A stretch of DNA of 64,000 bases from an uncultured Thermoanaerobaculia bacterium (GTDB lineage Bacteria; Acidobacteriota; UBA4820; DSQY01), in contig CAZPSH010000006.1 in the NCBI GenBank assembly GCA_964589625.1, positions 21,922 through 85,921 of the forward strand, in the 5' to 3' direction. The position numbers and the translations under genes are program-made. The notes beneath the pieces are model-generated. The model saw nothing but the letters and a program-made list of their open reading frames with translations, was not told where the DNA came from and did not search any database. Positions 6,918-43,515 of the stretch are shown here, piece after piece. How positions within the stretch are numbered: the first letter of the stretch is position 1; each line of letters opens with the position of its first letter.

Positions 6918-7366
6918 GACACCGGTGGGTTACGCTTGCGCTTCTGGCCTCCCTCGCCCTCAACGTGGGGCTCCTCGTTGCCCTGATCCAGAGGGCTTCG
7001 CATCATCCCCACCCCATGTCCCCGCCCGATCTGGGTCTCTCCCCGGCCCTCCAGGCCCGGTGGGACGAAAACTTCGAAGGCTTTCGCGTCCGGATGGACG
7101 CGCTGAGGGCGGAAATGCGGGCGGAGCGCGAGAAGATGCTCGCCCTGCTGGCCTCGGATGACTGCACGCCGGAGGCCCTCTCCGACCACCGGGCCCGGCT
7201 CCAAGACCTGACGGATCGCCTGTTCCGGACCGTCACGGCGCATCTCCTCGAACAAAAGGAGCTTCTCGACCCGGACCAGCGCGAGCGGTTTTTCGCGGCC
7301 CTGCGCAACCACATGCCCGACTCGGTGGGCATGTCCCCCCATTCCCCAAAGGAGAAACGACCGTGA
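6914..7366 (+). CDS. Periplasmic Spy/CpxP/ZraP-like protein (heavy-metal / envelope-stress family)
   Basis: Signal peptide, His-rich stretch (SHHPHPMSP), LxxxQ-type helical repeats (LDPDQRERFFAAL). ATG overlaps the anti-sigma stop. Confidence 0.6.
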   Translation: MRHRWVTLALLASLALNVGLLVALIQRASHHPHPMSPPDLGLSPALQARWDENFEGFRVRMDALRAEMRAEREKMLALLASDDCTPEALSDHRARLQDLTDRLFRTVTAHLLEQKELLDPDQRERFFAALRNHMPDSVGMSPHSPKEKRP

Positions 7367-8757
7367 AGCACCGCCAACTCTTCCTGCTCTGTCTCCTGCT
7401 GGCACCGGCCCTCCGCACCGGAGCGGAAGGGGAGGGACCCCCGGCGGGTCCCACCGGCTCTCCGCTCACCTTGCGTGAGTGCGTCGGGATCGCGGTCAGC
7501 CACAACCCGGACGTCGGCGCCATGCTTCATGCCGGGCGGGCCTCCATGGCACGCATCGGACAGAGCCGGGCCTCCTACTGGCCCACCCTCACGGCCACCG
7601 GGGGGTTGTCCCGATCCTACGCCGAAGCCCAGCCTGGCGCCTTAGGCCGCTCCGACGCCGCCACGAGTTCCAGCGGAATCCTCTCTACCCAAGTTACGCT
7701 CCTCGACGGGGGTCAGAGAAGGACGGAGGTCCAAGGGACCGAGGCAACGTACCAGGCCGCCGACTGGAGGTTCAAGGCCACCGTCCAGGACTTGGCCGTG
7801 GAGGTGGCCACGGCCTACTACAATCTTCAGGGCTTCCTTTGGGACCTCGAGGTGGCGCGGGAGATTCTGTCCCAAAGCACGGCCCACCTGGAGATGGCCC
7901 AGGCCAGAGAATCCGTGGGCCTCGCGCCGAGAGCCGACGTGCTCCGGGCGGCCACCGCCGAGGCGGACGCTCGACTGGGCGTGGTCCAGGCCGCCAGTGA
8001 CGTGTCTCGGGGAATGTCGGCCCTGGCGATCCTCATGGGGCATCCCGCGGACGCGCCCATCGAGATCGCGGGCGTCTCCCGGGAAGGGGGCCTGCCCCCC
8101 GTCCCGGACTGGGCCGAGGGACGGGCCCGGGCGCTGTCCGCCATCCCCGAAGTGAGGGCGGCGCGGGCGTCAGAGGAGGCCTATCTCTTCACGTGGAAGG
8201 CCGCCCGGTTCTCCACGCGGCCGACGGTCACCGCCGACGGGTCGGTGGGGCTTCTGGACGCGGGGCGCTGGCCGGACAGAGACACGTGGAGCGTGGGCCT
8301 CTCGGTTCGGATTCCACTCTTCACGGGCTTCTCCAAATCCTGGAGCGTGGCGGGGGCCAGGGCCGGTTACGAAGGCGCCAGGGAGGAAACCCGAAGCGCC
8401 CTTCTTGCCGCGGAAAAGGCTGCTTTCACGGCGCGGATTGGGATTGAGGAGTCCCTCCAGGCGGTGGGCGCCGCGGAGGCTTACCTGAGAAGCGCGGAAG
8501 AAAACGCCCAGGTGGCCGAGGGGCAGTACCGGGAGGGCCTTGGCTCCATGCTCGACCTGGTGGACGCCACCGCCTCCCTGCAGAGCGCTAAGCTGCGCTT
8601 GGTGAGGGCGCGCCTCCAGGCGCTCCTCTCCGACCTGCAGTGGGGCCGCGCCACGGGGATCGATCTCCTGGAGGGCATCACCCTGCCTTCCACTGCGCTC
8701 ACGCTGTCACGCAAAACCGGCTTGGCCGGCACAACCACGGGGGACCCAACGCCATGA
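7363..8757 (+). CDS. TolC-family outer membrane efflux protein
   Basis: 464 aa, signal peptide, the two repeated halves typical of OEP/TolC; GTG start overlaps the upstream stop. Confidence 0.85.
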   Translation: MKHRQLFLLCLLLAPALRTGAEGEGPPAGPTGSPLTLRECVGIAVSHNPDVGAMLHAGRASMARIGQSRASYWPTLTATGGLSRSYAEAQPGALGRSDAATSSSGILSTQVTLLDGGQRRTEVQGTEATYQAADWRFKATVQDLAVEVATAYYNLQGFLWDLEVAREILSQSTAHLEMAQARESVGLAPRADVLRAATAEADARLGVVQAASDVSRGMSALAILMGHPADAPIEIAGVSREGGLPPVPDWAEGRARALSAIPEVRAARASEEAYLFTWKAARFSTRPTVTADGSVGLLDAGRWPDRDTWSVGLSVRIPLFTGFSKSWSVAGARAGYEGAREETRSALLAAEKAAFTARIGIEESLQAVGAAEAYLRSAEENAQVAEGQYREGLGSMLDLVDATASLQSAKLRLVRARLQALLSDLQWGRATGIDLLEGITLPSTALTLSRKTGLAGTTTGDPTP

Positions 8758-9836
8758 GGCCCAGAACCCTTCGAAGCACTCTCGTATTCACCCTCCTCCT
8801 TGTTGTCACCCTCGTGGGCGCATGCAAGGAAGCCGGGGGGGGCAAGACCCCCCAGGGCAGCATGGTTCCCGTCAAGATCATGGACCTGCCCGCCCAGGTC
8901 ATCGCCACGGGGACCGTTACTCCGAGAGTCGGGGCCCAGGTCAAAGTGGGCCCGCGCGTCTCGGGCCGGCTCGAGCGCCTCTTCGTGCAGGTGGGAGACC
9001 GCGTGACCCGGGGACAGATCCTCGCGATCCTGGAGCAGCGGGACCTCCAGGCCAACGTGGACAAGGCCAGGGCGGCACTGGCTTCGGCCGAGGCCACGGC
9101 CACCTACTCCGAATCCAATTACGTCCGGCTCAAGGAGCTCCTCCCCAAGGGCTACGTCTCCCAGGACGCCGTGGACGCCGCCTTGCGGAATTTCGAGCAG
9201 GCCCGGGCCGACGCGAAGAACGCGAAGGCCCAACTCGATTTCGCCAAGGTCCAGCTCTCCTACGCCACCGTCACGTCGCCCATCGACGGAATTATCGGAT
9301 CCGTCTCCACCCAGGAGGGGGAGACGGTGGCGGCGAGCCTGAGCGCGCCCACCTTCGTAACGGTCATCGACCTGAGCCGCCTGGAGGTGGACGCCTATGT
9401 GGACGAGGTGGACATCGGCCGGGTCAAGGTCGGACAGGCCGCGACCTTCACCGTGGACGCATTCCCGGACAAGACCTTCAACGCGGTGGTGGAGGCCATC
9501 TACCCGCAAGCCGTCATCCAGGACAACGTCGTCAACTACGCCGTCGTCCTCGGCATTCAGGACGCCTTCGAGGGACTCCTCCGGCCCCAGATGACCGCCT
9601 CCGTCTCCATCACGCTGGACACCACCAAGGGTGCCTTGGTCGTGCCCGTCCGCGCCATCAAGCACGAGGGCGGGAAGGCCTTTGTCCAGATCCCCCAGGG
9701 GAAGGGTCTCACGGCGCGCCCGGTGACCCTTGGACGGGAGTCGGGCGACTACGTCCAGGTCAAGGCCGGGCTGTCCGAGGGCGACAAGGTCTTCGTGCCG
9801 GGCGCCGCCCGAACCAACGACACCGGCGGGATGTGA
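8754..9836 (+). CDS. Efflux membrane fusion protein (MacA/HlyD family)
   Basis: Lipoprotein-like N-terminus (LVGAC), coiled-coil hairpin, beta-barrel and MP domains; ATG overlaps the TolC-like stop. Confidence 0.85.
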   Translation: MRPRTLRSTLVFTLLLVVTLVGACKEAGGGKTPQGSMVPVKIMDLPAQVIATGTVTPRVGAQVKVGPRVSGRLERLFVQVGDRVTRGQILAILEQRDLQANVDKARAALASAEATATYSESNYVRLKELLPKGYVSQDAVDAALRNFEQARADAKNAKAQLDFAKVQLSYATVTSPIDGIIGSVSTQEGETVAASLSAPTFVTVIDLSRLEVDAYVDEVDIGRVKVGQAATFTVDAFPDKTFNAVVEAIYPQAVIQDNVVNYAVVLGIQDAFEGLLRPQMTASVSITLDTTKGALVVPVRAIKHEGGKAFVQIPQGKGLTARPVTLGRESGDYVQVKAGLSEGDKVFVPGAARTNDTGGM

Positions 9837-9846
9837 GGCGGAGGCC

Positions 9847-10524
9847 ATGATCGAACTGGGCGGAATCGCCAAGACCTACCTCACGGGCGGCGTCGAGACT
9901 CCCGTCCTGCACGGGATCGACCTGACCATCGAAGAAGGGGAGTTCGTGGCCCTCATGGGCCCATCGGGGACCGGAAAGAGCACGCTGATGAACATCCTCG
10001 GTCTTCTGGACCGGCCCTCGGCAGGCACATACCGCTTCGGAGGCCAGGACCTTACAACCCTCGGGGACGACGCCCTGTCCGCCATTCGGAACCGTCGAAT
10101 CGGCTTCGTCTTCCAACTGTTTCACCTCCTGCCCAGGGTCAACGTCCTCCAGAACGTGCTCCTACCCTTTCTCTACACCGAGCCCTACCCCCCGGACGCC
10201 CGCGACCGCGCCTTGGGCCTCCTCAAACGGGTGGGCCTGGAGGACCGTGTCGGCTTCAAGCCCAACGCCCTGTCCGGCGGCCAACAGCAGCGGGTGGCCA
10301 TCGCACGGGCTCTTGTCAACGAGCCCGCCCTTATCCTGGCGGACGAACCCACGGGGAACCTGGACTCGGTGGCGACCCAGGAGATCCTCGCCATCTTCGA
10401 CCGAATCCACAGGGAGGGGCGAACCATCGTCATGGTCACCCACGAACCCGAAGTGGCCTCCCACGCTTCGCGCGTGATTACCCTAAAGGACGGACGCGTC
10501 GCGAGCGACGTCCGGCCGGCCTGA
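9847..10524 (+). CDS. ABC transporter ATP-binding protein (MacB/LolD-like)
   Basis: Walker A GPSGTGKST, signature LSGGQQQRVAIARAL, Walker B ILADEPTGNLD. Confidence 0.9.
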   Translation: MIELGGIAKTYLTGGVETPVLHGIDLTIEEGEFVALMGPSGTGKSTLMNILGLLDRPSAGTYRFGGQDLTTLGDDALSAIRNRRIGFVFQLFHLLPRVNVLQNVLLPFLYTEPYPPDARDRALGLLKRVGLEDRVGFKPNALSGGQQQRVAIARALVNEPALILADEPTGNLDSVATQEILAIFDRIHREGRTIVMVTHEPEVASHASRVITLKDGRVASDVRPA

Positions 10525-10536
10525 GGTGCGCCTTCC

Positions 10537-11823
10537 ATGAACCGCGCCGAGACCGCCCAGCACCTTTCCTTGAGTTCGGGCCGCGCCCGGCCGGCCCTTT
10601 CCCCCTTCCGCATCCTACGGCTGGCGCGCCACGCCGCGGGCGCCCTCTGGTCCCAGAAGGGCAAGGCCTTCCTCATGCTCCTCGGGACCGCCGTCGGCAT
10701 CATGCTCCTCACGGCCGTCGTGGGCCTGAGCGCCGGCGTGGAGCAGAGAATCTCCCAGATCATGGCCACCTTCGGTCCCCGCTCGATCATGGTCTTCGCC
10801 GGCGGCGGGAGGATGATGGGCCCCCCGGGGAGGTCCGCTTCCTCTTCCACCCTCCGCCTCGAGGACGCCGTCGCGGTCCGGGAGCGGTTCTCCGAGGAGG
10901 CCGTGACCTGCGCCGGGCTCTTCCAGAGGGATGTCCCCATCAAGGCCGGAGAGGCGGAAGCACAGACCGGCGTGACCGCCGCCGACCCGGCCTACTGCCA
11001 GACCTTCGATTGGTACGTGGCAACGGGGGAGCCCCTCGACGACGACGACGAGAGGACCCTGGCGAGGCGCTGCGTCCTGGGAACCACCGTGGCTCGGAAC
11101 CTCTTCGGTGACGAGGATCCGGTGGGCAAGCGGATCCTGGTCAACCGGGTCCAGTTCACGGTGAAGGGCGTTCTCCAGTCCCGGGGAACGAATTCCATGG
11201 GGTTCGATATGGACGACCGCATCTGGGTCCCCCTTTCGACGGGGATGCGGCGCGTCTTCCGGGTGGACGCCATCCGGTTCATCCGCCTCAGGGTCCGGGA
11301 AGGCTACGAGGTCCCGGCCGTTGTGCAGGGCGTGACGGCGATCCTTCGACAACGGCACCACGTCCGGGAGGAAGAGGAGGACGACTTCCGGATGCGCACC
11401 CCGGAGTTCATCGCCCAGCGTGTCCGGAGCATGGCTCGGACCACCCAACTCGTGGGGGGCGCTCTGACCCTGGTGGCGCTCCTCGTCGGGGGAGTGGTCC
11501 TGATGAACATCCTCCTTCTGTCCGTCAGCGAGCGCGTGCCGGAGATCGGGCTCAAGCGGGCCCTGGGCGCGTCGAGGCGAGACGTCTTTTCCGAATTCCT
11601 GGTGGAATCGGTGATCGTGAGCCTCCTGGGCATGGCCTTGGGGGTCCTTCTTGGACTTATCCCCGTGCTGGCCATCCCCAAGTTGTTCCCCATGATGCCC
11701 ATGGCCGTGAGTTGGAAGACCTTCGCCTACTCGGCCCTCTTCTCCACACTGGTGGGACTCGTCTTCGGCGTCCAACCCGCGCGCCGGGCCGCCAAGCTCG
11801 ACCCCGTGGAGGCCCTAAGATGA
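10537..11823 (+). CDS. ABC transporter permease, FtsX/MacB family (permease 1)
   Basis: 428 aa: N-terminal TM helix, large periplasmic domain, C-terminal FtsX 3-TM bundle. Confidence 0.85.
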   Translation: MNRAETAQHLSLSSGRARPALSPFRILRLARHAAGALWSQKGKAFLMLLGTAVGIMLLTAVVGLSAGVEQRISQIMATFGPRSIMVFAGGGRMMGPPGRSASSSTLRLEDAVAVRERFSEEAVTCAGLFQRDVPIKAGEAEAQTGVTAADPAYCQTFDWYVATGEPLDDDDERTLARRCVLGTTVARNLFGDEDPVGKRILVNRVQFTVKGVLQSRGTNSMGFDMDDRIWVPLSTGMRRVFRVDAIRFIRLRVREGYEVPAVVQGVTAILRQRHHVREEEEDDFRMRTPEFIAQRVRSMARTTQLVGGALTLVALLVGGVVLMNILLLSVSERVPEIGLKRALGASRRDVFSEFLVESVIVSLLGMALGVLLGLIPVLAIPKLFPMMPMAVSWKTFAYSALFSTLVGLVFGVQPARRAAKLDPVEALR

Positions 11824-11912
11824 TTTCGGATTTTCGATTTTGGATTTCGGATTGGAGGCGGGAAGTGGGGTTGGTAGCATCCATCCCAAATCCCCAATCC
11901 CAAATCCCAAAT
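11822..11912. repeat. Heptamer-repeat element: four copies of GATTTCG (GATTTCG GATTTTC GATTTTG GATTTCG) and about 30 nt downstream the inverted counterpart (CCAAATC CCCAATC CCAAATC CCAAAT)
   Basis: Read directly, starting at the stop codon of permease 1 and ending at the RBS of permease 2. The arms are imperfectly complementary (potential hairpin). The same heptamer array recurs at 41938-41970. Confidence 0.6.
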
Positions 11913-11932
11913 GTCTCCGGAGGGCTCCCTGG

Positions 11933-13156
11933 ATGAATCTGGCCCGCACGCTCGTCATCTCCTGGGACGTCCTCATGGGCCACAAGTTGCGGACATTGCT
12001 GTCCAGCACGGGCATCGCCATCGGCGTGGCCGCCGTCGTCATCATGGTGGGGGCTGGAAAGGCGGCGGAGGAGGAGGTCGTCGGAAAGGTCCGCAGCATG
12101 GGCACCAACCTCCTCGTGGTCCAGGCCGGACGGTTCCAGAACCTGGGCGGACGGACCCGCCAGGTCGCCACCTTCACGACCCTCACCCAAAGAGACGTCC
12201 AGGCCCTCTCGCGCCGGATCACCGGAATCGAGCGCATCGCCGGGGTGTACCAGAGGAGCGCCGTGGTCCGGTACAAAGGAATCCGCACTCGAACCGACGT
12301 GGCGGGGGCCGAGCCTGCCCTCTTCCAGATCCGGGGCATCTCCGCCGCGAGCGGCCGCCTCTTCACCGACCTGGAACAGAGATCTTTGGCCCGTGTGGCG
12401 GTCGTGGGCCCCACGGTCGCGTCCAACGTCTTTTCCGGCGCGGACCCCGTGGGCAGATCCGTGGAGATCAACAGGATCCTTTTCAAGGTCGTGGGCGTCA
12501 CCTCCCCGCGGGGCCAGGACCTCAGCGGGGACGACCAGGACGACGTGGTGTACGTCCCGCTCTCCACCGCCATGGTGCGCGTCTTCCACGTCACCTACCT
12601 CCAGGGCATCCTGATCCAGGCCGAAAGCGCCGAAGCCATGGCCTCCCTTCCCGACCAGATCGCTCCCGTGCTCCGGAAGACCCACAGGCTCAAGCCGGGC
12701 AAGGAGAACGACTTCACGATCCAGGACCAGGCCCAGCTGATGCGGTCCGAGCAGGACACCAGCCAGGCTTTTACGGTCCTCGTGGGGAGCGTGGCTGGCG
12801 TCTCCCTTTTCACGGGAGGCGTCGGCATCCTCGCCGTCATGCTGATCTCTATCCGGGAAAGGACCCGGGAGATCGGCCTTCGGAGGGCCCTGGGAGGCCG
12901 GAGGAGGGACATCCTGGGGCAGTTTCTCCTGGAGGCGGGCAGCCTGGCCGCCATGGGAGGACTCTCGGGGGTCCTCGTGGGCCTGGGGGGCACCTGGCTC
13001 ACCGTGCACCTCATGCGATGGCCCCTCGTTTGGCCCTGGAGCGCCACCGCTTTTGCCCTCGGGCTTTCGGTGACCATGGGAGTCGCCTTCGGCCTCTATC
13101 CCGCCATGAAGGCCGCCCGGCTGGAACCGGCCGTGGCCCTCCATGCCGCCGGCTGA
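11933..13156 (+). CDS. ABC transporter permease, FtsX/MacB family (permease 2)
   Basis: About 407 aa from ATG 11933; same architecture as permease 1 (paralog). Confidence 0.85.
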   Translation: MNLARTLVISWDVLMGHKLRTLLSSTGIAIGVAAVVIMVGAGKAAEEEVVGKVRSMGTNLLVVQAGRFQNLGGRTRQVATFTTLTQRDVQALSRRITGIERIAGVYQRSAVVRYKGIRTRTDVAGAEPALFQIRGISAASGRLFTDLEQRSLARVAVVGPTVASNVFSGADPVGRSVEINRILFKVVGVTSPRGQDLSGDDQDDVVYVPLSTAMVRVFHVTYLQGILIQAESAEAMASLPDQIAPVLRKTHRLKPGKENDFTIQDQAQLMRSEQDTSQAFTVLVGSVAGVSLFTGGVGILAVMLISIRERTREIGLRRALGGRRRDILGQFLLEAGSLAAMGGLSGVLVGLGGTWLTVHLMRWPLVWPWSATAFALGLSVTMGVAFGLYPAMKAARLEPAVALHAAG

Positions 13157-13328
13157 CCCCGAAGGGGGACCGGCCCATGGAAAGAGGCCCCATGGATGGT
13201 GGGGGATCGACTTCGTCCATGGCAGCCGCAACGTCCACCTCGGCACCCCACCCGAGGGCTCGTCCGAGCTTCCAGCCCGTGTGGGCTCCGCAGGACTCCA
13301 CCGTTCCCCACACCCAGAGGAGACCATC

Positions 13329-13856
13329 ATGAAATCGCTTCAAGCCCGGCTCCTTCCTTTCGTCCTGGCCTGCCTCGCTCCCCTCCTCGCCTGCCGAGAG
13401 GCCGGGGGAACCCGCGTCGCGGTCATCGACATGGAGCGAATCGCCTCCGACTCCGCCGCGGCCAAGGCCGCCTTCGCCGAAGTGCAGGCTCTTTCGGAGA
13501 CAGCCCAGGGACAATTGTCTGGGCTCGCCCGCGAGATCCAAAGGGCCGAAGAGGCCGGGCGCATCCGGCCCGCCGATCTTGAGGCCATGAAGAGGCGGTG
13601 GATCGCCTTGAGGCAGGAGGCCGAATCCCAAGTGGGAGCCCGCCGCGAGGCGGCCGCAGCGGAGATGGAGGACGTCCTTCGCCGCGCCCTTGAGGAACTC
13701 GCTTCCGAGAACGGATGGGACTTGGCTCTCCGGAAGCAGGACGGAGTCGCCTGGTCCAAGAGGGACCTCGACGTTACGGCCCCCGTCGCGAGAAGGATGG
13801 ACGAGATCTGGGGCCGAACCCACAAGGACCGAGCCAGAGGGCCAGAGAACCCGTGA
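13329..13856 (+). CDS. Periplasmic chaperone Skp/OmpH family
   Basis: Signal peptide plus coiled-coil Ala/Glu/Arg-rich helical body of about 175 aa; weak family-level call. Confidence 0.55.
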   Translation: MKSLQARLLPFVLACLAPLLACREAGGTRVAVIDMERIASDSAAAKAAFAEVQALSETAQGQLSGLAREIQRAEEAGRIRPADLEAMKRRWIALRQEAESQVGARREAAAAEMEDVLRRALEELASENGWDLALRKQDGVAWSKRDLDVTAPVARRMDEIWGRTHKDRARGPENP

Positions 13857-13917
13857 AACCGGGAGGTCATGGGCTCCGGCGCTCCTGGGCGCTCGGATTC
13901 GTGGGCTCGCACCTCTC

Positions 13918-13941
13918 GGCGGAGAGGGGGGGATTCGAACC
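13918..13941 (-). repeat. Duplicate of the 3'-terminal 24 nt of tRNA-Ser (att-like direct repeat or pseudo-tRNA fragment)
   Basis: GGCGGAGAGGGGGGGATTCGAACC is identical to the 3' end of the tRNA-Ser gene 118 bp away, then diverges; it cannot fold into a cloverleaf. Confidence 0.6.
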
Positions 13942-14058
13942 TACAAGGACCCTGCGTTTCAAGGCCGCCTACGGTTCCCGGGGTGGGGGGTCAGCGGAGC
14001 GACCGAAGGGAGCGGAGCGCATAGGGGGGAGGACGGGACGGCCTTCCCCCTTGCTTCT

Positions 14059-14152
<94 letters not shown>

Positions 14153-14303
14153 GCGGAAAGGGTGGCCGCTTCTATTATAGGCGGGACCGAGCCTGCGCGT
14201 CAACGAAGAGAGGCTCTTGCGGCCCCTCCCGGTCGGTGGGATCCAGAGAACGCGAAGGGGGCGGGCCGAAGCCCGCCCCCTATGGGTGGCGACGAAGAGC
14301 AGG

Positions 14304-28187: not shown

Positions 28188-28321
28188 CCTCGTGCCGTTA
28201 GTAGGCGAGTCCGTGAGTACGTGAGTAGGGCAACGATCTCTGCCCCAGCGCCGGACTCGGTTTTACTCCCCTACTCCCCTACTCTCCTACTCACCTACTC
28301 ACCTACTCTCCTACTTTGGTA

Positions 28322-28347
28322 TTGGAGCGGGCGACGGGATTCGAACC
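28322..28347 (-). repeat. Duplicate of the 3'-terminal 26 nt of tRNA-Gly (att-like direct repeat or pseudo-tRNA fragment)
   Basis: TTGGAGCGGGCGACGGGATTCGAACC is identical to the tRNA-Gly 3' end 220 bp away; the upstream part lacks D and anticodon arms. Confidence 0.6.
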
Positions 28348-28567
28348 TACGGGCGCTAGGGGCCTCGCTCGCGTCGGAGTCCGCTCGCTCCGTCCCAAGC
28401 GCCCCTACGGTTCCCGGGGTGGGTCCCTCGGCTTGCCCCGCCCCGCTACGAACGCTCGCTCTTCGCTCCCGTTCTCGCCGCGGGCCTACGCCGTGTCCCA
28501 CCCTTCGAATCCCTGCTCTCTCGCTCCCTTCTTGCCGTGTTTCTCTGTTTCCCTGCTTCCATCCTTT

Positions 28568-28643
28568 TGGAGCGGGCGACGGGATTCGAACCCGCGACCC
28601 TCAGCTTGGAAGGCTGATGCTCTACCAGCTGAGCTACACCCGC
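28568..28643 (-). tRNA. tRNA-Gly (anticodon TCC)
   Basis: Manual fold: acceptor GCGGGTG/CGCCCGC, anticodon loop CTTCCAA. Confidence 0.85.
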
Positions 28644-37281: not shown

Positions 37282-38259
37282 TCACCCTCCCTTGCGGATG
37301 CCGGCCTCCACGGCCTCGGAGTAGGCCCCCATGGCCCTGAACTTTTCGTAGCGGCCCCGGAGAAGCTCTTCCGTGGACAGGGCCTCCAGCTCCCCGATCT
37401 GGGCCTCGAGGAGCGCGTCCAGGCGGGCGTAGACGGTCGGCGGGTCCACCGGAGCGCCCCCGGGGGGCTCCTCCACGATGGCGTCGATGAGCCCGAGACC
37501 CTTCAGGTCCTGGGCCGTCAGCTTGAGGGCCGACGCCGCGGTCTCCGCTTGGACGGCGTCCTTCCACAAGATCGCCGCGCACCCTTCCGGGGAGATGACC
37601 GAGTAGATGGCGTACTGGAGCATGTTGACACGGTCCCCGACGCCAAGGGCCAGCGCCCCCCCGCTTCCGCCCTCCCCGGTCACCGTCACCACGATGGGCA
37701 CCCGCAAGAGGGCCATGGCCTTCAAGTTGACGGCGATGGCCTCGGCCTGTCCGCGCTCCTCCGCGTCCAGACCGGGGTAGGCTCCCGGAGTGTCAATGAA
37801 GGTGAGAATGGGCATCCGGAATTTCTCCGCCATCCGCATGATGCGGAGGGACTTTCGGTACCCCTCGGGCCGGGGCATCCCGAAGTTGCGGTGGATCTTC
37901 TGTTTGGTGTCCCGCCCTTTCTGGTGGCCGATGACCGCCACCGTTCTTCCATGAAAGCGCGCCAGGCCGGCCACGATGGCCGGGTCGTCGGCGTAGCCCC
38001 TGTCCCCGTGGAGTTCCACGAAGTCCGTGAAGAGCGCTTGTACGTAGTCCAGGGTATAGGGCCTGTGGGCGTGCCTGGCCACCTGGACCACCTGCCAGGG
38101 AGTGAGCTTGGCGTAGGTATCGCGCCGGAGTTTCTCCAGTTTCTTCTGGAGGGCGGCCAGCTCCTTTTCGCGCCTCTTCTCGTCCCCGAAGAGGCCCAGG
38201 TTCTCGATCTGCGCCTCGAGTTCCAGGATGGGGCGCTCGAACTCCCGGGGGTCCTTCAT
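37282..38259 (-). CDS. accA: Acetyl-CoA carboxylase carboxyltransferase subunit alpha
   Basis: 325 aa, canonical AccA. Confidence 0.95.
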
Positions 38260-41200
38260 TGGCTCGGCCTCCTCTTTCCCTCCCCGCGGGTCAGGGTCCG
38301 GAACAGGTGCTTCACGCGCCCGCGTCCCACCAGGGCCTCCAAGTCGTCGATGAAGCCCCGTCCTCCCCTCACCCTCAGCTGGCCTCCGAGGAGAATGCGG
38401 GTGACGCAGCGCTCCTCCTCTACATCCACATACACCGGCAGGGCGCCGTGGTGCCGGCGCAGGCGCTCTTCAAAGTCCAGGAGCCAGTCCTCATCTTCGC
38501 ACAGGGCGGCGGGCAGGCACACGAGGACCCCCGTGGCCTTCGGTTCCAGCTCCTCCTGCGCCCGGTCCATGGGGACGACGGCGTTGGCCCAGACCTTCGG
38601 TTTCCCGTCCGGATCCCTCTGGATGCGGCCGATCACCAAGACGGCGGAGTCCTTCTCGATGGCCCCCTGGTATCTCTTGAAGCACTCGTTGAAGAGGAGA
38701 ACGTCCACCCGGGCTTCGAGGTCCTCGAGAACCAGCAGCCCGAACATCTCCCCCTTCTTGCTCTTCTTCTGGTTCCACTGGCCCACGACCCCTCCCACCG
38801 TGATCTCCGAGTCCGGGGGCGCATCGGCTAGTTCCACGATGTGGTGGGAGGCGAAGCGGCGCAGCATCTCCTGCTTCTCCACCAGCGGGTGCCCGCTCAG
38901 GTAGAATCCCAGGCTCTCCTTCTCCTTCGCGAACTTCTCCGCGTCGGACCACGGAGTCCCCTTGGAGTAGGCTTCCGGCTCCGATGCGTCTTCCGCGCCG
39001 AAGAGGCCCGCCTGCCCGCGGAGGCGGTCCTCCTGGTGGCGGACGGCGGAGGCCATGGCCGCGTCCAGCGAGGCCAGGAGGTCCCAGCGGGGAACCCCGA
39101 AGCTGTCCATGGCTCCCGACTGGACGAGGTTCTCCAGGACCCGCCGGTTCGCGTGGAAACGGTCCACCTCCCTGCAGAAGCGGAAGAGGTCGGGAAACGG
39201 GCCGACCCGTCGCCGGGCTTCAAGGATGGCCTCCACGGAGTTCAGGCCGACGTTCTTGATGGCGGAGAGGCCGTAGCGGATGGCGCCGTCCTCGATGCTG
39301 AACCCCACCTGGCTTCGGTTCACGTCGGGTGGGAGGAGGGAGATTCCCATTTCCCGGCACGAGTTCATGTACTTCATGACCTCGTCGGTGTGTTCTGCCC
39401 AGGCCGATAGGGTCGCCGCCATGAAGTGCGTCGGGAAGTGGGCCTTGAGAAAGGCCGTCTGGAAGGCCACGAGCGCGTAGGCCGCCGAGTGGGACTTGTT
39501 GAATCCGTAACGGCCGAAGGTTTCCATGTGGTCGAAGAGGTCCCCCGCCCGCCCCTCGTCCACCCCGCGCTTGGCGCATCCCTCCAGGAACAGCTTCCGC
39601 TGGACCTGCATGGCGGCGGCGTCCTTCTTGGACATGGCCTTCCGGAGGGTGTCCGCCTGGCCGAGGGTGAATCCCCCCAACCGATGGGCGATGAGCATGA
39701 CCTGCTCCTGGTACACGATGACGCCCAGGGTCTCGTCCAGGATCTCCTTGACCTCCTTCACCGGGTACTCGACGGCCTCCCGGCCCTTCGCCCGGGAGAT
39801 GTAGGTGTTGATCATCCCGGCGTCCAGCGGGCCAGGGCGGTAGAGCGCGTTCAGCACGATGAGGTCTTCGAACCGCCGGGGTCCCAGGCGGCGCAGGATG
39901 TCCTTCATGCCGCCCGATTCGAACTGGAAGACCCCGTCCGTGTCGCCCCGCCCGAAGAGCTCCAGGGTCTTCGCGTCGTCCAGGGGAACGGCGGCCAGGT
40001 CGGGGGGCTCCCCCCCCGAGAGGCGGATCAGCTCCAGCGTGTCGTAGAGGACGGTGAGGGTCCGGAGGCCCAGGAAGTCCATCTTGAGCAGGCCCAGGGC
40101 CTCGATCTCGTCCTTGCTGTACTGGGTGGTGATGTCCTCCTTGCCCCCGGCGGCCTTGTACAGGGGCAGGTATTCGGTGATGGGCCGGGGGGCGATGACC
40201 ACCCCGGCGGCATGGGTGGAGGCGTGCCGGGTGAGCCCCTCCAGGCGGCGGGCGATGTCCACCATCTCGCGCACCTGCGGATCGGCATCGTAGTTCTCCT
40301 TGAATTGGGGCGAGACGCTGAGGGCCGTTTCCAGGGTGGCCGAGAGGTCCTCGGGCACGAGCTTGGCGATGCGGTCCACCTTGTCCAGCGGCACGCCCAA
40401 CGCGCGCCCCGTGTCCCGAAGCGCCAGGCGCGCCTTCATTTCGCCGAAGGTGATGATCTGGGCCACGTTGTCCCGGCCGTACTTCTCCGTGACGTACTGG
40501 ATCACCTCGGCCCGTCCCCGCATGCAGAAATCGATGTCGATGTCGGGCATGGAGACCCGTTCCGGGTTGAGGAAGCGCTCGAAGAGGAGGCCGTACTTGA
40601 GCGGGTCCAGGTCCGTGATGCCCATGCAGTAGGATATGAAGGAGCCCGCGGCGCTGCCCCGGCCCGGCCCCACCGGGACGCCGCGCTCCCGGGCGTACCG
40701 GATGAAATCCCACACCACCAGGAAATAGCCCGCGAGGTCCATCTTCTTGATGAGCCCGATCTCCTGGTCGAAGCGCTTCTCGTACTCCTCCGGGGCCAGG
40801 GCCCCCTTCCGCTCCAGAAGCCCCTGCTCCTTCCGCCTGGCGAAGCCGGACCGCGCCACCTTCTCGAAGTAGGAGGCGAGCGTCTCGCCCTCCGGCACCT
40901 GGAACTTCGGGTAGTGCTTGGACTCCGTGTCGAAGGCGAAGTGGCAGCGCTGGGCCACCTTGACCGTGTTCTCCAGCGCCTCGGGCCAGTCCCCGAAGCG
41001 GTCCCACATCTCCCGGGGGCTCTTGAGGTAGTGCTCCGCGGTGTAGGCCATCTTGCCCGACTTGGAGCGCTCCTCCCGCGTGGTCTTGGTCTGGATGCAC
41101 AGAAGGATGTCGTGGGCCCCGAAGTCCTCTCTTCGCAGGAAGTGGACGTCGTTTGTGGCCACCAGGGGGATACCCGTCTCCCGGTGCATCTCCAGGATCT

Positions 41201-41780
41201 TGGCGTTCACCGCGGCCTGCTCGGGAAGGCCGTGGTCCTGGATCTCCAGGAAGAAGTGGTCGGGGCCGAAGATCTCGCGAAACTCCAACGCCGACCTCAG
41301 CGCCTCCTCGTCTTTTCCCCGCCTCAGTTTCTGCGGGATCTCCCCGCCGAGGCAGGCGGAGGTGGCGATGAGCCCCTCGTGGTGACGCCGCAGGAGGTCC
41401 TTGTCCATGCGGGGCTTGTACTGAAAGCCCTCCAGAAAGGCGGCGGTGGAGAGCTTGCAAAGGTTGTGGTACCCGGTCTCGTTCTCGCACAGGAGGATCA
41501 GGTGGGAGTACGGGCGCTTGCCGTCCGGTCCCGCCGCGTCCTCGTCGAACCGCGAGTGGGGGGCCACGTAGGCCTCGCACCCGATGATGGGGCGGACCCC
41601 GGCCTTAATGGCTCGCCTGAAGAACTTCACGGCGCCGAAGAGGTTGCCGTGGTCCGTGATGGCCATGGCGGGCGATCCGTGGGAGGCGGCTTGGGCGAGG
41701 GCCTCGTCGAGGCGGCACGCCCCGTCCAACAGGGAATACTGGGTGTGCAGGTGCAGGTGGACGAAGGGGCGGTCGGTCAT
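38256..41780 (-). CDS. dnaE: DNA polymerase III subunit alpha
   Basis: 1174 aa, PHP domain [13 protein letters not shown], polymerase core, OB fold. Confidence 0.97.
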
Positions 41781-41937: not shown

Positions 41938-41970
41938 CTCCGAAATCCGGAATCCGAAATCCGAAATCCA
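41938..41970. repeat. Second copy of the GGATTTC heptamer array (minus-strand reading: GGATTTCGGATTTCGGATTCCGGATTTCGG)
   Basis: Starts 4 nt after the guaA stop codon, in the guaA-dnaE intergenic region; same unit and same position relative to a stop codon as the 11822 element. Confidence 0.55.
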
Positions 41971-41973
41971 CGA

Positions 41974-43515
41974 TCACTCCCATTCGATGGTTCCGGGAGG
42001 CTTGGAGGTCACGTCGTAGACCACCCGGCTGATGCCCCTCACCTCGTTCACGATCCGGCTCGAAACGCGCCCGAGGAAATCGGGCGAGAAACGGAACCAG
42101 TCGGCCGTCATGAAGTCCTCGGTGACCACCGCCCTCAGGGCCGCCACGCGGTCGTAGGTCCTGGCGTCCCCCATGACGCCCACCGTGCGGACGGGAAGGA
42201 GGACCACGAATGCCTGGGAAACGGCCCCGTAGAGGCCCTCCCGGCGGATCTCCTCGAGGAAGATCGCGTCCGCCTCCCGCAGAAGGGCGGCGTCCTCCCG
42301 CGTCACCTCGCCGAGGATCCGGACGGCGAGGCCCGGCCCCGGAAAGGGATGCCGGTCCACGAAGGCGGCGTCCAGCCCCAGGAGGCGGCCCACCTCCCGG
42401 ACCTCGTCCTTGAACAGATCTCGGATCGGCTCCACGATTTTCATGCGCATGCGCTCGGGGAGTCCGCCCACGTTGTGGTGGCTCTTGATGACCGAGGCGG
42501 CGGCCGAGGCGGCCGCCGATTCGATGCGGTCCGGGTAGATGGTGCCCTGCACCAAGTAAGAAACCATTCCGAGGGCCTGGGCCTCCCGCTCGAAGACTTC
42601 CACGAAGGTCCGGCCCACCGCCTTTCGCTTCTCCTCGGGATCGGTCAGGCCCCGGAGGGCCAGGAAAAACTCCTCGGAGGCATCCACCGTCTTCAGGTCC
42701 AGGTTCAATCCCTCGAGAAGGCGGCGAGACACCGCCTCGGCTTCCCCTTTTCTGAGGAGGCCGTGATCGATGAAGAGGCCCGTCAGCCGGTCCCCGACGG
42801 CCCGATGGACCAGGAGGGCCGCCACCGACGAGTCCACGCCGCCGGAGATGGCGCAGAGAACCCGCTCCCCTCCCACCACCCGGCGCACCTCCGCCACGGC
42901 CTCCTCGACGAAGGAGGCCATGGTCCAATCGCCGCGCGCCCCGCATGCACCGAAGAGGAACCGGCGCAGGATCTCTCGCCCGTCGGCGGTGTGGGTCACC
43001 TCGGGGTGAAACTGGAGGGCGTACAGCCCCCTCTCCGGGTCCTCCATGGCGGCCACGGGAACGCTTTCCGTGCTCCCCGAAACGCGGAAGCCCGCGGGGG
43101 GGGCCTCCACCCGGTCCCCGTGGCTCATCCAGATCGGACGGGGATCCGGGGGCCCGTGAAAGAGGGCGCTTTCCGGGTTTCCAAAGAAGAGGGCGGGGCC
43201 GTATTCCCGGCGTCCCGAGGGGACCACCTGGCCGCCCAGGGCTTGCGCCATCCACTGCATCCCGTAGCAGATGCCAAGGATGGGAATCCCCAGGCCGACG
43301 ATGGCCGGATCCGGCAGGGGGGCGCCGTCCGCGAAGACGGACTGGGGGCCGCCCGAGAGGATGAGTCCGATGGGAGTTCTGGCGTGGATCTCCCCTGCCG
43401 GACGGTCGTGAGGCACCACCTCGCAGTACACGCCCAGTTCCCTCACGCGCCGGGCGATCAGCCGCGTGTACTGGGAGCCGAAATCGAGGATGAGGACGAC
43501 CTGTCCGCCGTGCAT
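41974..43515 (-). CDS. guaA: GMP synthase (glutamine-hydrolysing)
   Basis: 513 aa, GATase1 plus ATP-PPase (SGGVDS) plus dimerisation domain. Confidence 0.97.

What the first reader, a model, noticed from the sequence alone, without database searches (positions are those of the whole stretch)
11822..11912. GGATTTC heptamer tandem array forming an imperfect inverted repeat between the two permease genes, with a second array copy after the guaA stop (41938-41970)
Seen: immediately after the stop codon of permease 1 the sequence reads GATTTCG GATTTTC GATTTTG GATTTCG GATTGG. 30 nt later comes the inverted version (CCAAATC CCCAATC CCAAATC CCAAAT), which abuts the next start codon. At 41938-41970 the same unit (read on the coding minus strand: GGATTTCGGATTTCGGATTCCGGATTTCGG) begins 4 nt after the guaA stop. 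Both copies therefore sit directly 3' of a stop codon in the sense orientation. Inference: a small REP/MITE-like or protein-binding repeat family. Possible roles are mRNA 3' stabiliser, intra-operon processing or attenuation site between the permease genes, or a tandem binding site for a regulator. It is not a CRISPR array: the unit is 7 bp and there are no spacers.
Basis: seen in the sequence. Interest (0 to 1): 0.5.

Follow-up and report, generated by a model that had tools for sequence, protein, structure and literature searches.

The report
Repeat-armed hairpin left by gene cassette
The roughly 110-base insert between two transporter genes, whose arms are mirror-image runs of a 7-base repeat, is most likely the gene-less remnant of a widespread small cassette that normally carries a 'four-helix-bundle' (23S rRNA intervening-sequence) protein gene, and this link may help explain why 7-base repeats so often sit next to bacterial genes.

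Summary
There are three period-7 arrays with a GGATT core (11822-11853, 11883-11912, 41939-41969). No array this strong appeared in any of 50 shuffled windows. One detail is wrong: permease 2 starts at ATG 11933, behind its own Shine-Dalgarno (SD) ribosome-binding site, not at the ATG that touches the second array.

Relatives show that the ancestral permease junction was a 4-nt ATGA overlap. The window carries a 109-nt insert there. At the same junction, other relatives carry hairpins with different heptamer arms. One carries a full PF05635 ('23S rRNA intervening-sequence protein') gene between inverted arrays, and one a truncated copy.

In other phyla, GGATT/AATCC arrays with the same end sequences (TGAtttcGGATT...AATCCgaaATG) bracket PF05635 genes. 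All 12 PF05635 genes inspected on plasmids of cultured bacteria have short tandem arrays beside them.

So locus 1 is most likely an ORF-less miniature of an IVS-type cassette. The guaA array is a one-armed or solo copy. The insert is 91% identical to a relative whose 4-fold sites are 72-78% identical, so it is constrained. Its predicted hairpin is only marginally stable. RNase III processing or a translational-coupling role is inferred, not shown.

It belongs to the known heptamer-repeat class (Xanthomonas GGGAATC, Nostoc GGGGATT). I found no paper describing the link to PF05635 cassettes.

The parts
10537..11823 (+). Permease 1 (MacB-type), the upstream gene of the junction. Its stop TGA 11821-11823 is overlapped by the first repeat unit.
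   Evidence: Pfam MacB_PCD 6e-34 and FtsX 2.5e-19. ORF list.
11822..11853 (+). Left arm: GATTTCG GATTTTC GATTTTG GATTTCG GATTGG, i.e. (GGATTNN)n.
   Evidence: TRF period 7, 4.6 copies, score 43. Sequence. Same start 'TGAtttcGGATT' as the left arms of full cassettes L053 and L009.
11854..11882 (+). 29-nt loop, where full cassettes carry the PF05635 gene.
   Evidence: No PF05635 remnant anywhere in the window. The loop is the least conserved part against the 92% relative: 6 of the 10 spacer changes fall here.
11883..11912 (+). Right arm: (ATCCCAA)n, i.e. AATCCNN units, the inverted partner of the left arm. On the minus strand it reads GGGATTTGGGATTGGGGATTTGGG, a G-quadruplex (G4) motif at 11885-11908.
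   Evidence: TRF period 7, 4.3 copies, score 53. Pairs with the left arm at 23 of 29 positions. G4 motif. Nearly identical to the Planktothrix cassette arms AATCCCC...AATCCCAAATATG.
11911..11913 (+). Vestigial ATG at the end of the right arm. This is the canonical cassette end 'AATCCnaaATG'. It is out of frame with permease 2.
   Evidence: ORF 11911-13332 has no Pfam hit. In full cassettes this ATG is the start of the downstream gene.
11914..11932 (+). Tail of the insert, with a Shine-Dalgarno-like GGAGGG at 11919-11924, 8 nt before the true start.
   Evidence: The 20 nt from 11913 are identical in the 92% relative. Homologous tails (CCGGAGGNCTCC) occur in L133, L140 and L178, whose arms differ.
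11933..13156 (+). Permease 2 (MacB-type), the downstream gene of the junction.
   Evidence: Pfam MacB_PCD 1.5e-38 and FtsX 1.3e-19 for 11933-13153.
41939..41969 (-). Solo array GGATTTC GGATTTC GGATTCC GGATTTC GG, 4 nt after the guaA stop, in the 193-nt guaA-dnaE spacer. No inverted partner.
   Evidence: TRF period 7, 4.4 copies, score 55. guaA and dnaE by Pfam. A co-occurring strain has a fifth unit, GGATTGG. Similarity to locus 1 is limited to the array plus about 8 nt.
28196..28315 (-). Second repeat-armed hairpin, with period-8 units (GGNGAGTA x6.5 ... TACTCACG x4 read on the minus strand). It lies between a tRNA-Gly 3' fragment and tRNA-Thr.
   Evidence: TRF. Fold -54.4 kcal/mol, z = -5.1. 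tRNAs. The period-8 arms resemble those of the L144 full cassette.

Best explanation
Locus 1 (11822-11932) is an ORF-less miniature of an 'IVS-type' cassette. The full cassette is a small insertion element: a gene of about 120 codons for a PF05635/TIGR02436 four-helix-bundle protein (the '23S rRNA intervening-sequence protein', S23p, related to Avd), bracketed by two inward-pointing arrays of 4-5 tandem heptamers. The cassette landed exactly in the ATGA stop/start overlap of two translationally coupled MacB-type permease genes. The gene has since been lost, which leaves left arm, 29-nt loop, right arm and a tail that supplies a new ribosome-binding site for permease 2.

The insert is transcribed within the operon mRNA, where the arms can pair into a stem of about 29 positions with one mismatch per unit. 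By analogy with rRNA intervening sequences (IVSs), which have the same architecture and are excised by RNase III, the stem is probably a processing site or a translational-coupling structure that makes the insertion tolerable. The guaA array is a one-armed or solo copy of the same family.

Shown here: the insertion, the homology of the site series, the association of the arms with PF05635 genes, and sequence constraint on the insert. Inferred: that the window's copy descends from a gene-carrying cassette, that the hairpin forms in vivo, RNase III cleavage, and any effect on expression.
For: 1. Insertion. Outgroup and some ingroup relatives have permease 1 and 2 overlapping by ATGA (L136, L141/142, L143, L179). 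The window and others have 100-115 nt, or up to about 460 nt, inserted there, with the (A/G)TGA(A) junction present on both sides.

2. Site series. At the same junction there are several states:
- (GGATTTC)n/(CCCAAAT)n in the window, L129 and L132.
- (AAGGCGG)n/(CTTCCGA)n in L133, L140 and L178.
- (GGAATTC)4 in L135.
- (GTTGATAA)7 + a 124-aa PF05635 ORF (E = 1.6e-32) + (CATCAACT)3.5 in L144.
- A truncated PF05635 ORF + (CAACGATT)3.5 in L139.
The inserts with different arms share the tail CCGGAGGNCTCC, which points to one ancestral insert.

3. Same arms around the gene elsewhere. L009 (Mucilaginibacter), L053 and L017 (Phycisphaerae) and L159 read: stop-TGAtttc(GGATTNN)3-4, PF05635 ORF, (AATCCGN)4, aATG of the next gene. 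Among the top 120 homologues of that protein subfamily, 25 end in SEIRNPKSE-type tails, which are translated (GAAATCC)n.

4. Independent sample. All 12 PF05635 genes inspected on plasmids of cultured bacteria have short tandem arrays, mostly period 7, within about 100 nt, and most are in inverted arrangement. Planktothrix has GATTTAC/GGGATTT...AATCCCC/AATCCCAAATATG, almost the window's arms.

5. Polarity. GGATT arrays pair convergently (43) far more often than divergently (6). The ORF boundary on the 5' side of an array is closer than the one on the 3' side (68 vs 39 cases; medians 23.5 vs 78 nt). This is what inward-pointing arms at gene junctions predict.

6. Constraint. The insert is 99/109 identical with no indel against a relative whose 4-fold sites are 72-78% identical.

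7. Precedent. The Coxiella 23S IVS has an S23p ORF preceded by (GACAGAT)3-4, and RNase III cuts at the first repeat (PMC4990558).
Against: - No PF05635 gene or remnant exists in the window. Descent of this copy from a gene-carrying cassette is inferred from relatives, not seen.
- Only 3-4 of about 100 distinct GGATT arrays in the genome-scan loci enclose a PF05635 ORF, and 64% are solo. Arrays may therefore exist independently of the gene.
- The predicted hairpin is weak in this lineage: z = -1.3 in the window, -0.7 in L129, +0.2 in L132. The substitutions against L129 are not compensatory, so the constraint may not be on pairing.
- The guaA array has no partner. In the 92% relative it is replaced by an unrelated (GAGCCCGN)4 array.
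- The duplicated ATGA could be a selection filter (each gene needs a stop or a start) rather than a target-site duplication.
- No recombinase or mobility mechanism is known for PF05635 proteins.
Confidence: 0.6

Rival explanations
1. Arrays came first. These are free-standing heptamer simple-sequence repeats of the class known from Xanthomonas and Nostoc, created by replication slippage and kept as RNA or DNA hairpins in their own right. PF05635 genes merely tend to insert into them or be retained between them. On this reading the window's element never contained a gene.
For: Most GGATT arrays are solo or form short-loop pairs without any ORF. Period 7 dominates the tandem arrays in the 120 loci, with many different units (317 of 978 arrays). 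A heptamer excess has been attributed to polymerase slippage (Mrazek 2007, as cited in PMC4692102). Unit number is polymorphic between co-occurring strains (L132 and L001).
Against: Splitting a direct array cannot produce inverted arms. The arm unit tracks the PF05635 subfamily: all P0242-like proteins with >=48% identity have GATTT-type arms, while more distant ones have other units. The ends are conserved across phyla to the nucleotide (TGAtttcGGATT...AATCCgaaATG), including around the gene. L139 shows a decaying gene at the same junction.
Confidence: 0.2
2. The arrays are multivalent binding sites on RNA or single-stranded DNA for a ring-shaped or oligomeric protein, one heptamer per subunit. 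The binder could be the pentameric PF05635 protein itself, acting in trans, or another RNA-binding regulator. Binding would control translation or stability of the flanking genes.
For: Arrays cluster at 4-5 units. S23p from X. campestris is a homopentameric ring (cited in PMC4990558). Arm unit and protein subfamily co-vary. The arms are more conserved than the loop and than 4-fold sites, and the changes are not compensatory. The Nostoc preprint 10.1101/2022.06.06.494920 speculates about an unknown heptamer-binding factor.
Against: There is no binding data of any kind. No PF05635 gene lies in the 64 kb or in about 150 kb of close relatives, apart from the junction copies. Units differ between loci of one genome (GGATT here, GGNGAGTA at 28.2 kb), which would need several binders.
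Confidence: 0.1
3. The arrays act as G-quadruplex or i-motif elements, as proposed for GGGAATC and GGGGATT repeats: four G-tracts fold and modulate transcription or translation.
For: The right arm on the minus strand is GGGATTTGGGATTGGGGATTTGGG, a canonical G3N4 x4 motif. AATCCCC is the reverse complement of the Nostoc GGGGATT repeat, which was shown to form G4 in vitro (PMC4692102). Arrays prefer four to five units.
Against: The left arm and the guaA array have only GG tracts. The G-rich strand at locus 1 is antisense to the operon. Orthologous elements with (GGAATTC)n, (GTTGATAA)n or (ATTTTAG)n arms cannot form G4 yet have the same architecture. The motif is one of 16 in this GC-rich window.
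Confidence: 0.05
4. The element is neutral junk: a decaying scar of an old insertion with no present function, tolerated because the tail supplies a ribosome-binding site.
For: Weak fold z-scores in this lineage. Non-compensatory substitutions. The guaA array has turned over completely in a 92% relative. Some lineages lack the insert altogether.
Against: The insert is 91% identical with no indel, although simple-sequence repeats are normally hypermutable and 4-fold sites are only 72-78% identical. Arm complementarity is retained in every lineage despite complete change of unit.
Confidence: 0.05

Closest known systems
Heptameric intergenic repeats GGGAATC (Xanthomonas) and GGGGA(C/T)T (Nostoc), Rehm et al. 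2015 (PMC4692102). Also the cyanobacterial STRR heptamers (Mazel 1990, from my own knowledge and as cited there).
   Same: Tandem heptamers that are intergenic, typically about 4 units long, and within 50 bp of the 5'-neighbouring ORF (after a stop on the sense strand, or before a start on the antisense strand). Convergent inverted pairs occur (70-75 in Xanthomonas). The site is conserved between relatives while length and sequence vary. AATCCCC, in the window's right arm and in Planktothrix, is the reverse complement of Nostoc GGGGATT.
   Different: The unit here is GGATTTC (GG only, not G3) on one arm. That work proposed G-quadruplexes and found no function. It does not mention PF05635/IVS genes. 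Here the arrays are tied to a gene cassette and to an insertion event.
23S rRNA intervening sequences (IVS) carrying an S23p ORF, e.g. Coxiella burnetii (PMC4990558), Leptospira, Xanthomonas.
   Same: Inverted ends form a long stem, and the loop holds a PF05635 ORF or nothing. Tandem heptamers (GACAGAT x3-4) lie at the 5' side, with unit-number polymorphism between strains. The ORF decays. Distribution is sporadic, which suggests mobility. RNase III excises the element from the transcript.
   Different: Those sit in helix 25 or 45 of 23S rRNA. This one sits between two protein-coding cistrons and has lost the ORF. RNase III cleavage is not shown here.
REP/REPIN elements mobilised by RAYT transposases, and MITEs.
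   Same: Short (about 100 nt), gene-less, hairpin-forming, intergenic, often just after stop codons, and present in many copies. A miniature derivative of a larger element.
   Different: The arms are tandem 7-mers, not single imperfect palindromes. There is no RAYT or IS transposase. The putative parent carries a four-helix-bundle protein with no known recombinase activity. The same arm unit is shared across phyla.
TAACTGA direct repeats of Beggiatoaceae, cyanobacteria and Bacteroidetes (MacGregor 2015, PMC4679880).
   Same: Heptamer arrays of 2-6 units, intergenic, a few nucleotides upstream of start codons, with a patchy distribution across phyla that suggests horizontal spread.
   Different: Different unit. 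Almost no inverted pairs were reported. That work proposed a binding site for a translational regulator and made no link to PF05635.

Membership tests
Heptameric intergenic SSR class (Rehm 2015 type / STRR) | Head-to-tail repeats of a 7-nt unit, at least 3-4 copies. | tested here: met
   TRF period 7 with 4.3-4.6 copies at three sites. No such array in 50 shuffles.
Heptameric intergenic SSR class (Rehm 2015 type / STRR) | Intergenic, within 50 bp of the 5'-neighbouring ORF: after a stop on the sense strand, or before a start on the antisense strand. | tested here: met
   The arrays lie 0 and 4 nt from stop codons. Across 120 loci the 5' boundary is closer in 68 cases against 39, with medians of 23.5 and 78 nt (crude ORF calls).
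Heptameric intergenic SSR class (Rehm 2015 type / STRR) | Preference for about four units, and occurrence of convergent inverted pairs. | tested here: met
   Unit counts peak at 4-5. Convergent pairs number 43 against 6 divergent. Locus 1 is a convergent pair.
Heptameric intergenic SSR class (Rehm 2015 type / STRR) | G3-tract units able to form a G-quadruplex. | tested here: inconclusive
   Only the right arm (minus strand) has the G3N4 x4 motif. The left arm and the guaA array have GG tracts only.
IVS-type PF05635 cassette | Two inverted ends that can pair into a long stem. | tested here: met
   23 of 29 positions pair in register, and the minimum-free-energy fold is a hairpin. The stability z-score is only -1.3.
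IVS-type PF05635 cassette | PF05635/TIGR02436 ORF between the ends. | tested here: not met
   The loop is 29 nt and the window holds no remnant. The feature is met at the orthologous junction in L144 (E = 1.6e-32) and partly in L139. It is also met between GGATT arms in L009, L053 and L159. The window copy is therefore filed as an ORF-less derivative, not a full member.
IVS-type PF05635 cassette | Located in helix 25 or 45 of 23S rRNA. | tested here: not met
   It lies between two permease cistrons. No rRNA is present in the window.
IVS-type PF05635 cassette | Excised from the transcript by RNase III. | not testable with these tools
   Needs RNA end-mapping or an in vitro cleavage assay. The precedent is PMC4990558.
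REP / REPIN | Each unit is an imperfect palindrome of 20-40 nt, with a cognate RAYT gene in the genome. | tested here: not met
   The arms are direct heptamer arrays, not palindromes. No RAYT-like gene was noticed in the rough ORF map of the window or among the few ORFs scanned against Pfam. The rest of the genome was not available.
MITE | Terminal inverted repeats plus a target-site duplication, derived from an IS that encodes a transposase. | tested here: inconclusive
   Inverted arms are present. A 4-6 nt (A/G)TGA(A) lies on both sides in 5 of 6 inserts first examined (the later L178 also fits), but this could be a selection filter. The parent element has no transposase.
Intrinsic (Rho-independent) terminator | GC-rich stem followed by a T-run. 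| tested here: not met
   No terminator-like site at 11822-11932. The right arm is followed by GTCTCCGGAGG.
CRISPR array | Repeats of 23-50 nt separated by unique spacers. | tested here: not met
   The units are 7 nt and contiguous.
Any Rfam RNA family | A covariance-model match. | tested here: not met
   Only tRNAs reach the gathering score. In the element regions there are only chance hairpin hits with E > 1.

The most novel reading that the evidence does not exclude
Inverted arrays of 4-5 tandem heptamers are the cis-acting ends of a previously unrecognised, cross-phylum class of intercistronic insertion cassettes built around the PF05635 four-helix-bundle (S23p/Avd-like) protein. rRNA intervening sequences would be one special case of this class. 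Their gene-less and one-armed relics would account for a large share of the long-noted excess of heptameric repeats next to bacterial genes (STRR, GGGAATC, GGGGATT, possibly TAACTGA). The pentameric protein may recognise its own arm repeats.
Probability: 0.4. Interest if true: 0.8.

Novelty: new variant of a known kind. Interest (0 to 1): 0.6.

Why it matters
Two long-standing loose ends in bacterial genomics would be joined.

The first is why 7-nt tandem repeats are over-represented in many bacterial genomes and why they sit right against gene boundaries. This has been known since the STRR sequences of 1990 and the 2007 and 2015 surveys, with no accepted function.

The second is what the very large 'four helix bundle protein' (23S rRNA IVS protein) family is. 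More than 8000 cluster representatives matched in a single search here, and the family has no known role.

If the arrays are the ends of these cassettes, both become testable in culturable hosts such as Nostoc, Xanthomonas and Mucilaginibacter, using RNase III mutants, end-mapping and protein-repeat binding assays.

There is also a practical point for annotation. Gene callers read through the arms, producing SEIRNPKSE-type tails. They also pick the vestigial ATG at the end of an arm.

For this window alone, the finding is a modest one: a constrained but probably relic insert in an efflux operon.

Tried and rejected
- Intrinsic terminator or attenuator: no T-run and no terminator-like hit at the element.
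- Known RNA family: nothing in Rfam beyond tRNAs. Only chance miRNA-like hairpin hits with E > 1.
- CRISPR and REP/RAYT: the architecture does not fit.
- Close relatives of the window among the 120 genome-scan loci: none found by BLAST.
- PF05635 remnants in the window's loops and spacers: none at E < 2, even with filters off.
- Homology between the interiors of locus 1 and the guaA-dnaE spacer: limited to the array plus about 8 nt, and the interiors score no better than shuffles.
- Compensatory substitutions between the window and the 92% relative: none found. The A-to-C changes in the right arm break pairs.
- Thermodynamic support for the window hairpin: weak (z about -1.3). I therefore do not claim a strongly selected structure in this lineage.
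- An inverted partner for the guaA array: none.
- One relative (P0130) could not be read because no DNA is held for it.
- Literature searches for a described link between PF05635/S23p and heptamer repeats found only the Coxiella IVS paper. Rehm 2015 and MacGregor 2015 do not mention it.
- The ORF-boundary statistics rest on crude ORF calls of at least 100 codons, not on a gene finder.
Full report
**1. Observation**

The sequence is as described. Tandem Repeats Finder reports three period-7 arrays (sequences):
- 11822-11853, 4.6 copies, unit GATTTCG.
- 11883-11912, 4.3 copies, unit ATCCCAA.
- 41939-41969, 4.4 copies, which reads GGATTTC on the minus strand.

No period-7 array of comparable score appeared in any of 50 dinucleotide-preserving shuffles of the window. 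The window has about 67% G+C.

Pfam identifies the neighbouring genes:
- An outer-membrane factor (Pfam OEP, 7363-8757).
- An ABC ATPase (9730-10524).
- MacB-type permease 1 (10537-11823).
- MacB-type permease 2.
- An OmpH-like gene.
- On the other strand, guaA (41974-43515) followed by dnaE (38256-41780).

The first array overlaps the permease-1 stop (TGA 11821-11823). The guaA array starts 4 nt after the guaA stop.

One detail of the finding is wrong. The ATG at 11911 that touches the second array is out of frame, and its ORF has no family match. Permease 2 starts at ATG 11933, 8 nt after GGAGGG at 11919-11924.

The two arrays at locus 1 are inverted and pair at 23 of 29 positions in register, with about one mismatch per unit. 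The guaA array has no partner.

A third structure of the same kind has 8-nt units. It lies at 28196-28315, in the tRNA cluster upstream of tuf.

**2. The motif is not private to this genome**

By my own arithmetic, about 4 are expected by chance in 2 x 596 Gb.

The hits come from Verrucomicrobiota, Planctomycetota, several classes of Acidobacteriota, Chloroflexota, Bacteroidota, deltaproteobacteria and others, at 34-71% G+C.

In those 906 kb, period 7 is by far the commonest tandem-repeat period: 317 of 978 arrays, with many different units.

The GGATT arrays show these regularities:
- Read in the GGATTTC direction, they tend to have an ORF boundary close to their 5' side. The 5' boundary is closer in 68 cases and the 3' boundary in 39, with medians of 23.5 and 78 nt. 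These are crude ORF calls.
- The boundary is either a stop codon on the same strand or a start codon on the other strand.
- Unit number peaks at 4-5.
- Convergent pairs (GGATT... then ...AATCC within 150 nt) outnumber divergent ones 43 to 6. About 64% of arrays are solo.

These are the properties reported for GGGAATC repeats in Xanthomonas and GGGGA(C/T)T repeats in Nostoc. They include the four-unit preference, the 'close to the 5'-neighbouring ORF' rule and 70-75 convergent inverted pairs, and no function was found for them (PMC4692102). TAACTGA repeats in Beggiatoaceae are a further relative (PMC4679880). The window's arrays therefore belong to a known but unexplained class.

**3. The orthologous sites**

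The window comes from an Acidobacteriota lineage seen in several metagenomes. The guaA protein is 92% identical to that of an NCBI metagenome-assembled genome.

*guaA-dnaE spacer*
- Window: 193 nt, with (GGATTTC)4.
- The 92% relative: 147 nt, with a different array, (GAGCCCGN)4, at the same place. This was found identically in four independent assemblies.
- The 78% relative: 73 nt, no array.
- The 74% relative: 22 nt, no array.
- A co-occurring strain has a fifth unit, GGATTGG.

This site is in rapid flux.

*Permease junction (tree)*
- L141/142, L143 (both outgroups), L136 and L179: the two genes overlap by ATGA.
- Window, a co-occurring strain (L132, one extra right-arm unit) and the 92% relative (L129-131): the GGATT/AATCC insert.
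- L133, L140, L178: (AAGGCGG)n ... (CTTCCGA)n.
- L135: (GGAATTC)4, with a period-14 hybrid right arm that still contains CTTCCG.
- L144: (GTTGATAA)7, then a 124-codon ORF, then (CATCAACT)3.5.
- L139: a truncated copy of that ORF, then (CAACGATT)3.5.

The ORF is PF05635, '23S rRNA-intervening sequence protein'. Its E-value is 1.6e-32, and 7.6e-20 for the fragment. NCBIfam names the L144 ORF TIGR02436 'four helix bundle protein', with a weaker resemblance to the DGR protein Avd.

The inserts with different arms share a tail, CCGGAGGNCTCC, before the start codon. This tail is absent from typical cassettes elsewhere, so they most likely descend from one insertion whose arms were later rewritten or exchanged.

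The junction (A/G)TGA(A) is present on both sides of the insert in 5 of the 6 inserts seen at that stage; L178, fetched later, fits the same pattern. This could be a target-site duplication. It could also be a selection filter, since each gene needs its stop or its start.

L136 (no insert) is sister to L144 (full cassette) at 89% identity. This implies either a precise loss or repeated gain.

**4. The same arms bracket the same gene elsewhere**

Among the genome-scan loci, four read as follows:

upstream stop-TGAtttc(GGATTNN)3-4, PF05635 ORF, (AATCCGN)4, aATG of the next gene.

They are L009 (Mucilaginibacter), L053 and L017 (Phycisphaerae; the ORF is decayed in L017) and L159 (a che operon). 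The window reads TGAtttcGGATTttcgattttGGATTtcGGATTgg ... AATCCccAATCCcaAATCCcaaATG. That is the same two ends with a 29-nt loop in place of the gene.

A profile of this protein subfamily returned 8000 proteins at E <= 1e-10. Of the best 120, 25 end in SEIRNPKSE, KSEIEIPKSEI or NPKSAIRNPK, which are the translation of (GAAATCC)n-type arrays. In these, the gene runs into its right arm.

As an independent sample chosen only by protein similarity, I inspected 12 PF05635 genes on complete plasmids of cultured bacteria: Gloeocapsa, Planktothrix (two), four Nostocales, Pseudanabaena, Chlorohelix, Bernardetia, Treponema and Dolichospermum. Findings:
- All 12 have short tandem arrays, mostly 7-mers, within about 100 nt.
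- Most arrays are in inverted arrangement, and the right arm often abuts the next ATG.
- Wherever a neighbouring gene is annotated close by on the same strand, the PF05635 gene is co-oriented with it. Several sit inside defence operons.
- Planktothrix has GATTTAC/GGGATTT ... AATCCCC/AATCGTA/AATCCCAAATATG, almost the window's arms. AATCCCC is the reverse complement of the Nostoc GGGGATT repeat.
- The arm unit tracks the protein subfamily. P0242-like proteins have GATTT-type units. More distant ones have GTCGGAG, AGATTGC, TCGTAAT, GTAAAAA or GTTGATAA.

The Coxiella 23S rRNA IVS has the same design: a stem, an S23p ORF, and (GACAGAT)3-4 before the ORF with strain-to-strain unit variation. RNase III cuts at the first repeat (PMC4990558).

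**5. What the window element most likely is and does**

Locus 1 is best read as an ORF-less miniature of such a cassette, inserted into an ATGA overlap. The arms-inward geometry explains the positional rule in section 2 and in Rehm et al.

The element is not neutral in this lineage. Against the 92% relative, 4-fold degenerate sites are 72-78% identical, but the 109-nt insert is 99/109 identical with no indel. The last 20 nt of the spacer (11913-11932, essentially the tail) are 20/20. From the ten differences listed, the two arms together differ at about 4 of 59 positions and the loop at 6 of 29.

What is constrained is unclear:
- Predicted hairpins are only marginally better than shuffles here: z = -1.3 in the window, -0.7 in L129 and +0.2 in L132. 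In other lineages the values are -1.3 (L133), -1.35 (L140) and -5.2 (L135). The tRNA-cluster hairpin in this window scores -5.1.
- The few substitutions are not compensatory.
- There is no terminator and no Rfam match.

By analogy with IVSs, I infer that the transcribed arms form an RNase III substrate. Four heptamers (28 nt) is just over the roughly 22 bp that enzyme needs (the latter figure from my own knowledge). Alternatively, or in addition, the stem puts the upstream stop and the downstream start side by side and so preserves translational coupling. In the window the tail's own SD has probably taken over that role. These steps are inference.

The guaA array is a one-armed or solo copy. 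Why solo arrays are so common, and why a different unit occupies the same site in a close relative, remains unexplained.

**6. Rivals**

I considered four alternatives:
- Arrays first, with genes landing in them later.
- Multivalent protein-binding sites, possibly for the pentameric PF05635 protein.
- G-quadruplex elements. The right arm's minus strand is a G3N4 x4 motif, but orthologous elements with AT-rich or G-poor arms have the same architecture.
- A functionless scar, which the conservation result argues against.

**7. Novelty**

The repeat class and rRNA IVSs are each known. I found no paper linking heptamer arrays to PF05635 cassettes outside the single Coxiella IVS description. The searched library is incomplete, so this is not proof of novelty.

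I rate the window feature a new variant of a known kind: an IVS-type element in an mRNA operon that has lost its gene. Interest is moderate to good, because it makes an old question directly testable.

Noticed in passing
window 28196-28315 (minus strand): An inverted pair of period-8 arrays, (GGNGAGTA)6.5 ... (TACTCACG)4, forms a strong hairpin (-54 kcal/mol, z = -5.1). It lies between a tRNA-Gly 3' fragment and tRNA-Thr(ggt) in the thrU-tyrU-glyT-thrT-tufB cluster. It is the same kind of repeat-armed hairpin with a different unit.
   Followed up: partly
window 28322-28347 and 28567-28592: An exact 26-nt duplicate of the 3' end of tRNA-Gly (TTGGAGCGGGCGACGGGATTCGAACC), with 219 nt of non-coding sequence between the copies. 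It looks like an att-type scar of an integration into the tRNA gene.
   Followed up: no
window 11911-13332: A 473-aa ORF starting at the ATG that ends the right arm is out of frame with permease 2 and has no family match. It is a GC-rich shadow ORF that a gene caller could wrongly prefer.
   Followed up: yes
L122-L125 11555-11584; L126 9805-9825 and 1530-1551: Close relatives carry other short arrays at gene ends. (GAGCCCGN)4 lies right after the guaA stop in the 92% relative. In the 78% relative, (GAAAAGT)3 lies on the dus stop codon, and its reverse complement (TTTCACT)3 lies in another spacer.
   Followed up: partly
L166-L177 (plasmids of cyanobacteria, Chlorohelix, Treponema, Bernardetia): PF05635 'four helix bundle protein' genes sit inside operons and are co-oriented with the neighbouring genes wherever those are annotated close by on the same strand. 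Several are in defence systems: drmD|pglX or MmeI, DUF1156|HEPN-Swt1, and next to cas1/cas2.
   Followed up: partly
P0241-P0350 (database proteins): 25 of 120 four-helix-bundle proteins carry C-terminal tails such as SEIRNPKSEIRN, which are translated (GAAATCC)n repeats. One N-terminus (P0303, GFRNSDFG) is a translated left arm. These look like annotation read-through into the arms.
   Followed up: yes
L129 13963-18517 vs window 13856-14300: Downstream of the OmpH-like gene, the 92% relative has unknown ORFs and a YD-shell protein. The window has tRNA-Ser and then rpoC. This is a synteny break next to the operon.
   Followed up: no
L135 2354-2440: The left arm is a perfect (GGAATTC)4, but the right arm is a period-14 hybrid, (CTTTCCGAATTCCG)2, that still contains the CTTCCG of the sister lineage's arm. 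It looks like a snapshot of one arm unit being replaced by another.
   Followed up: partly
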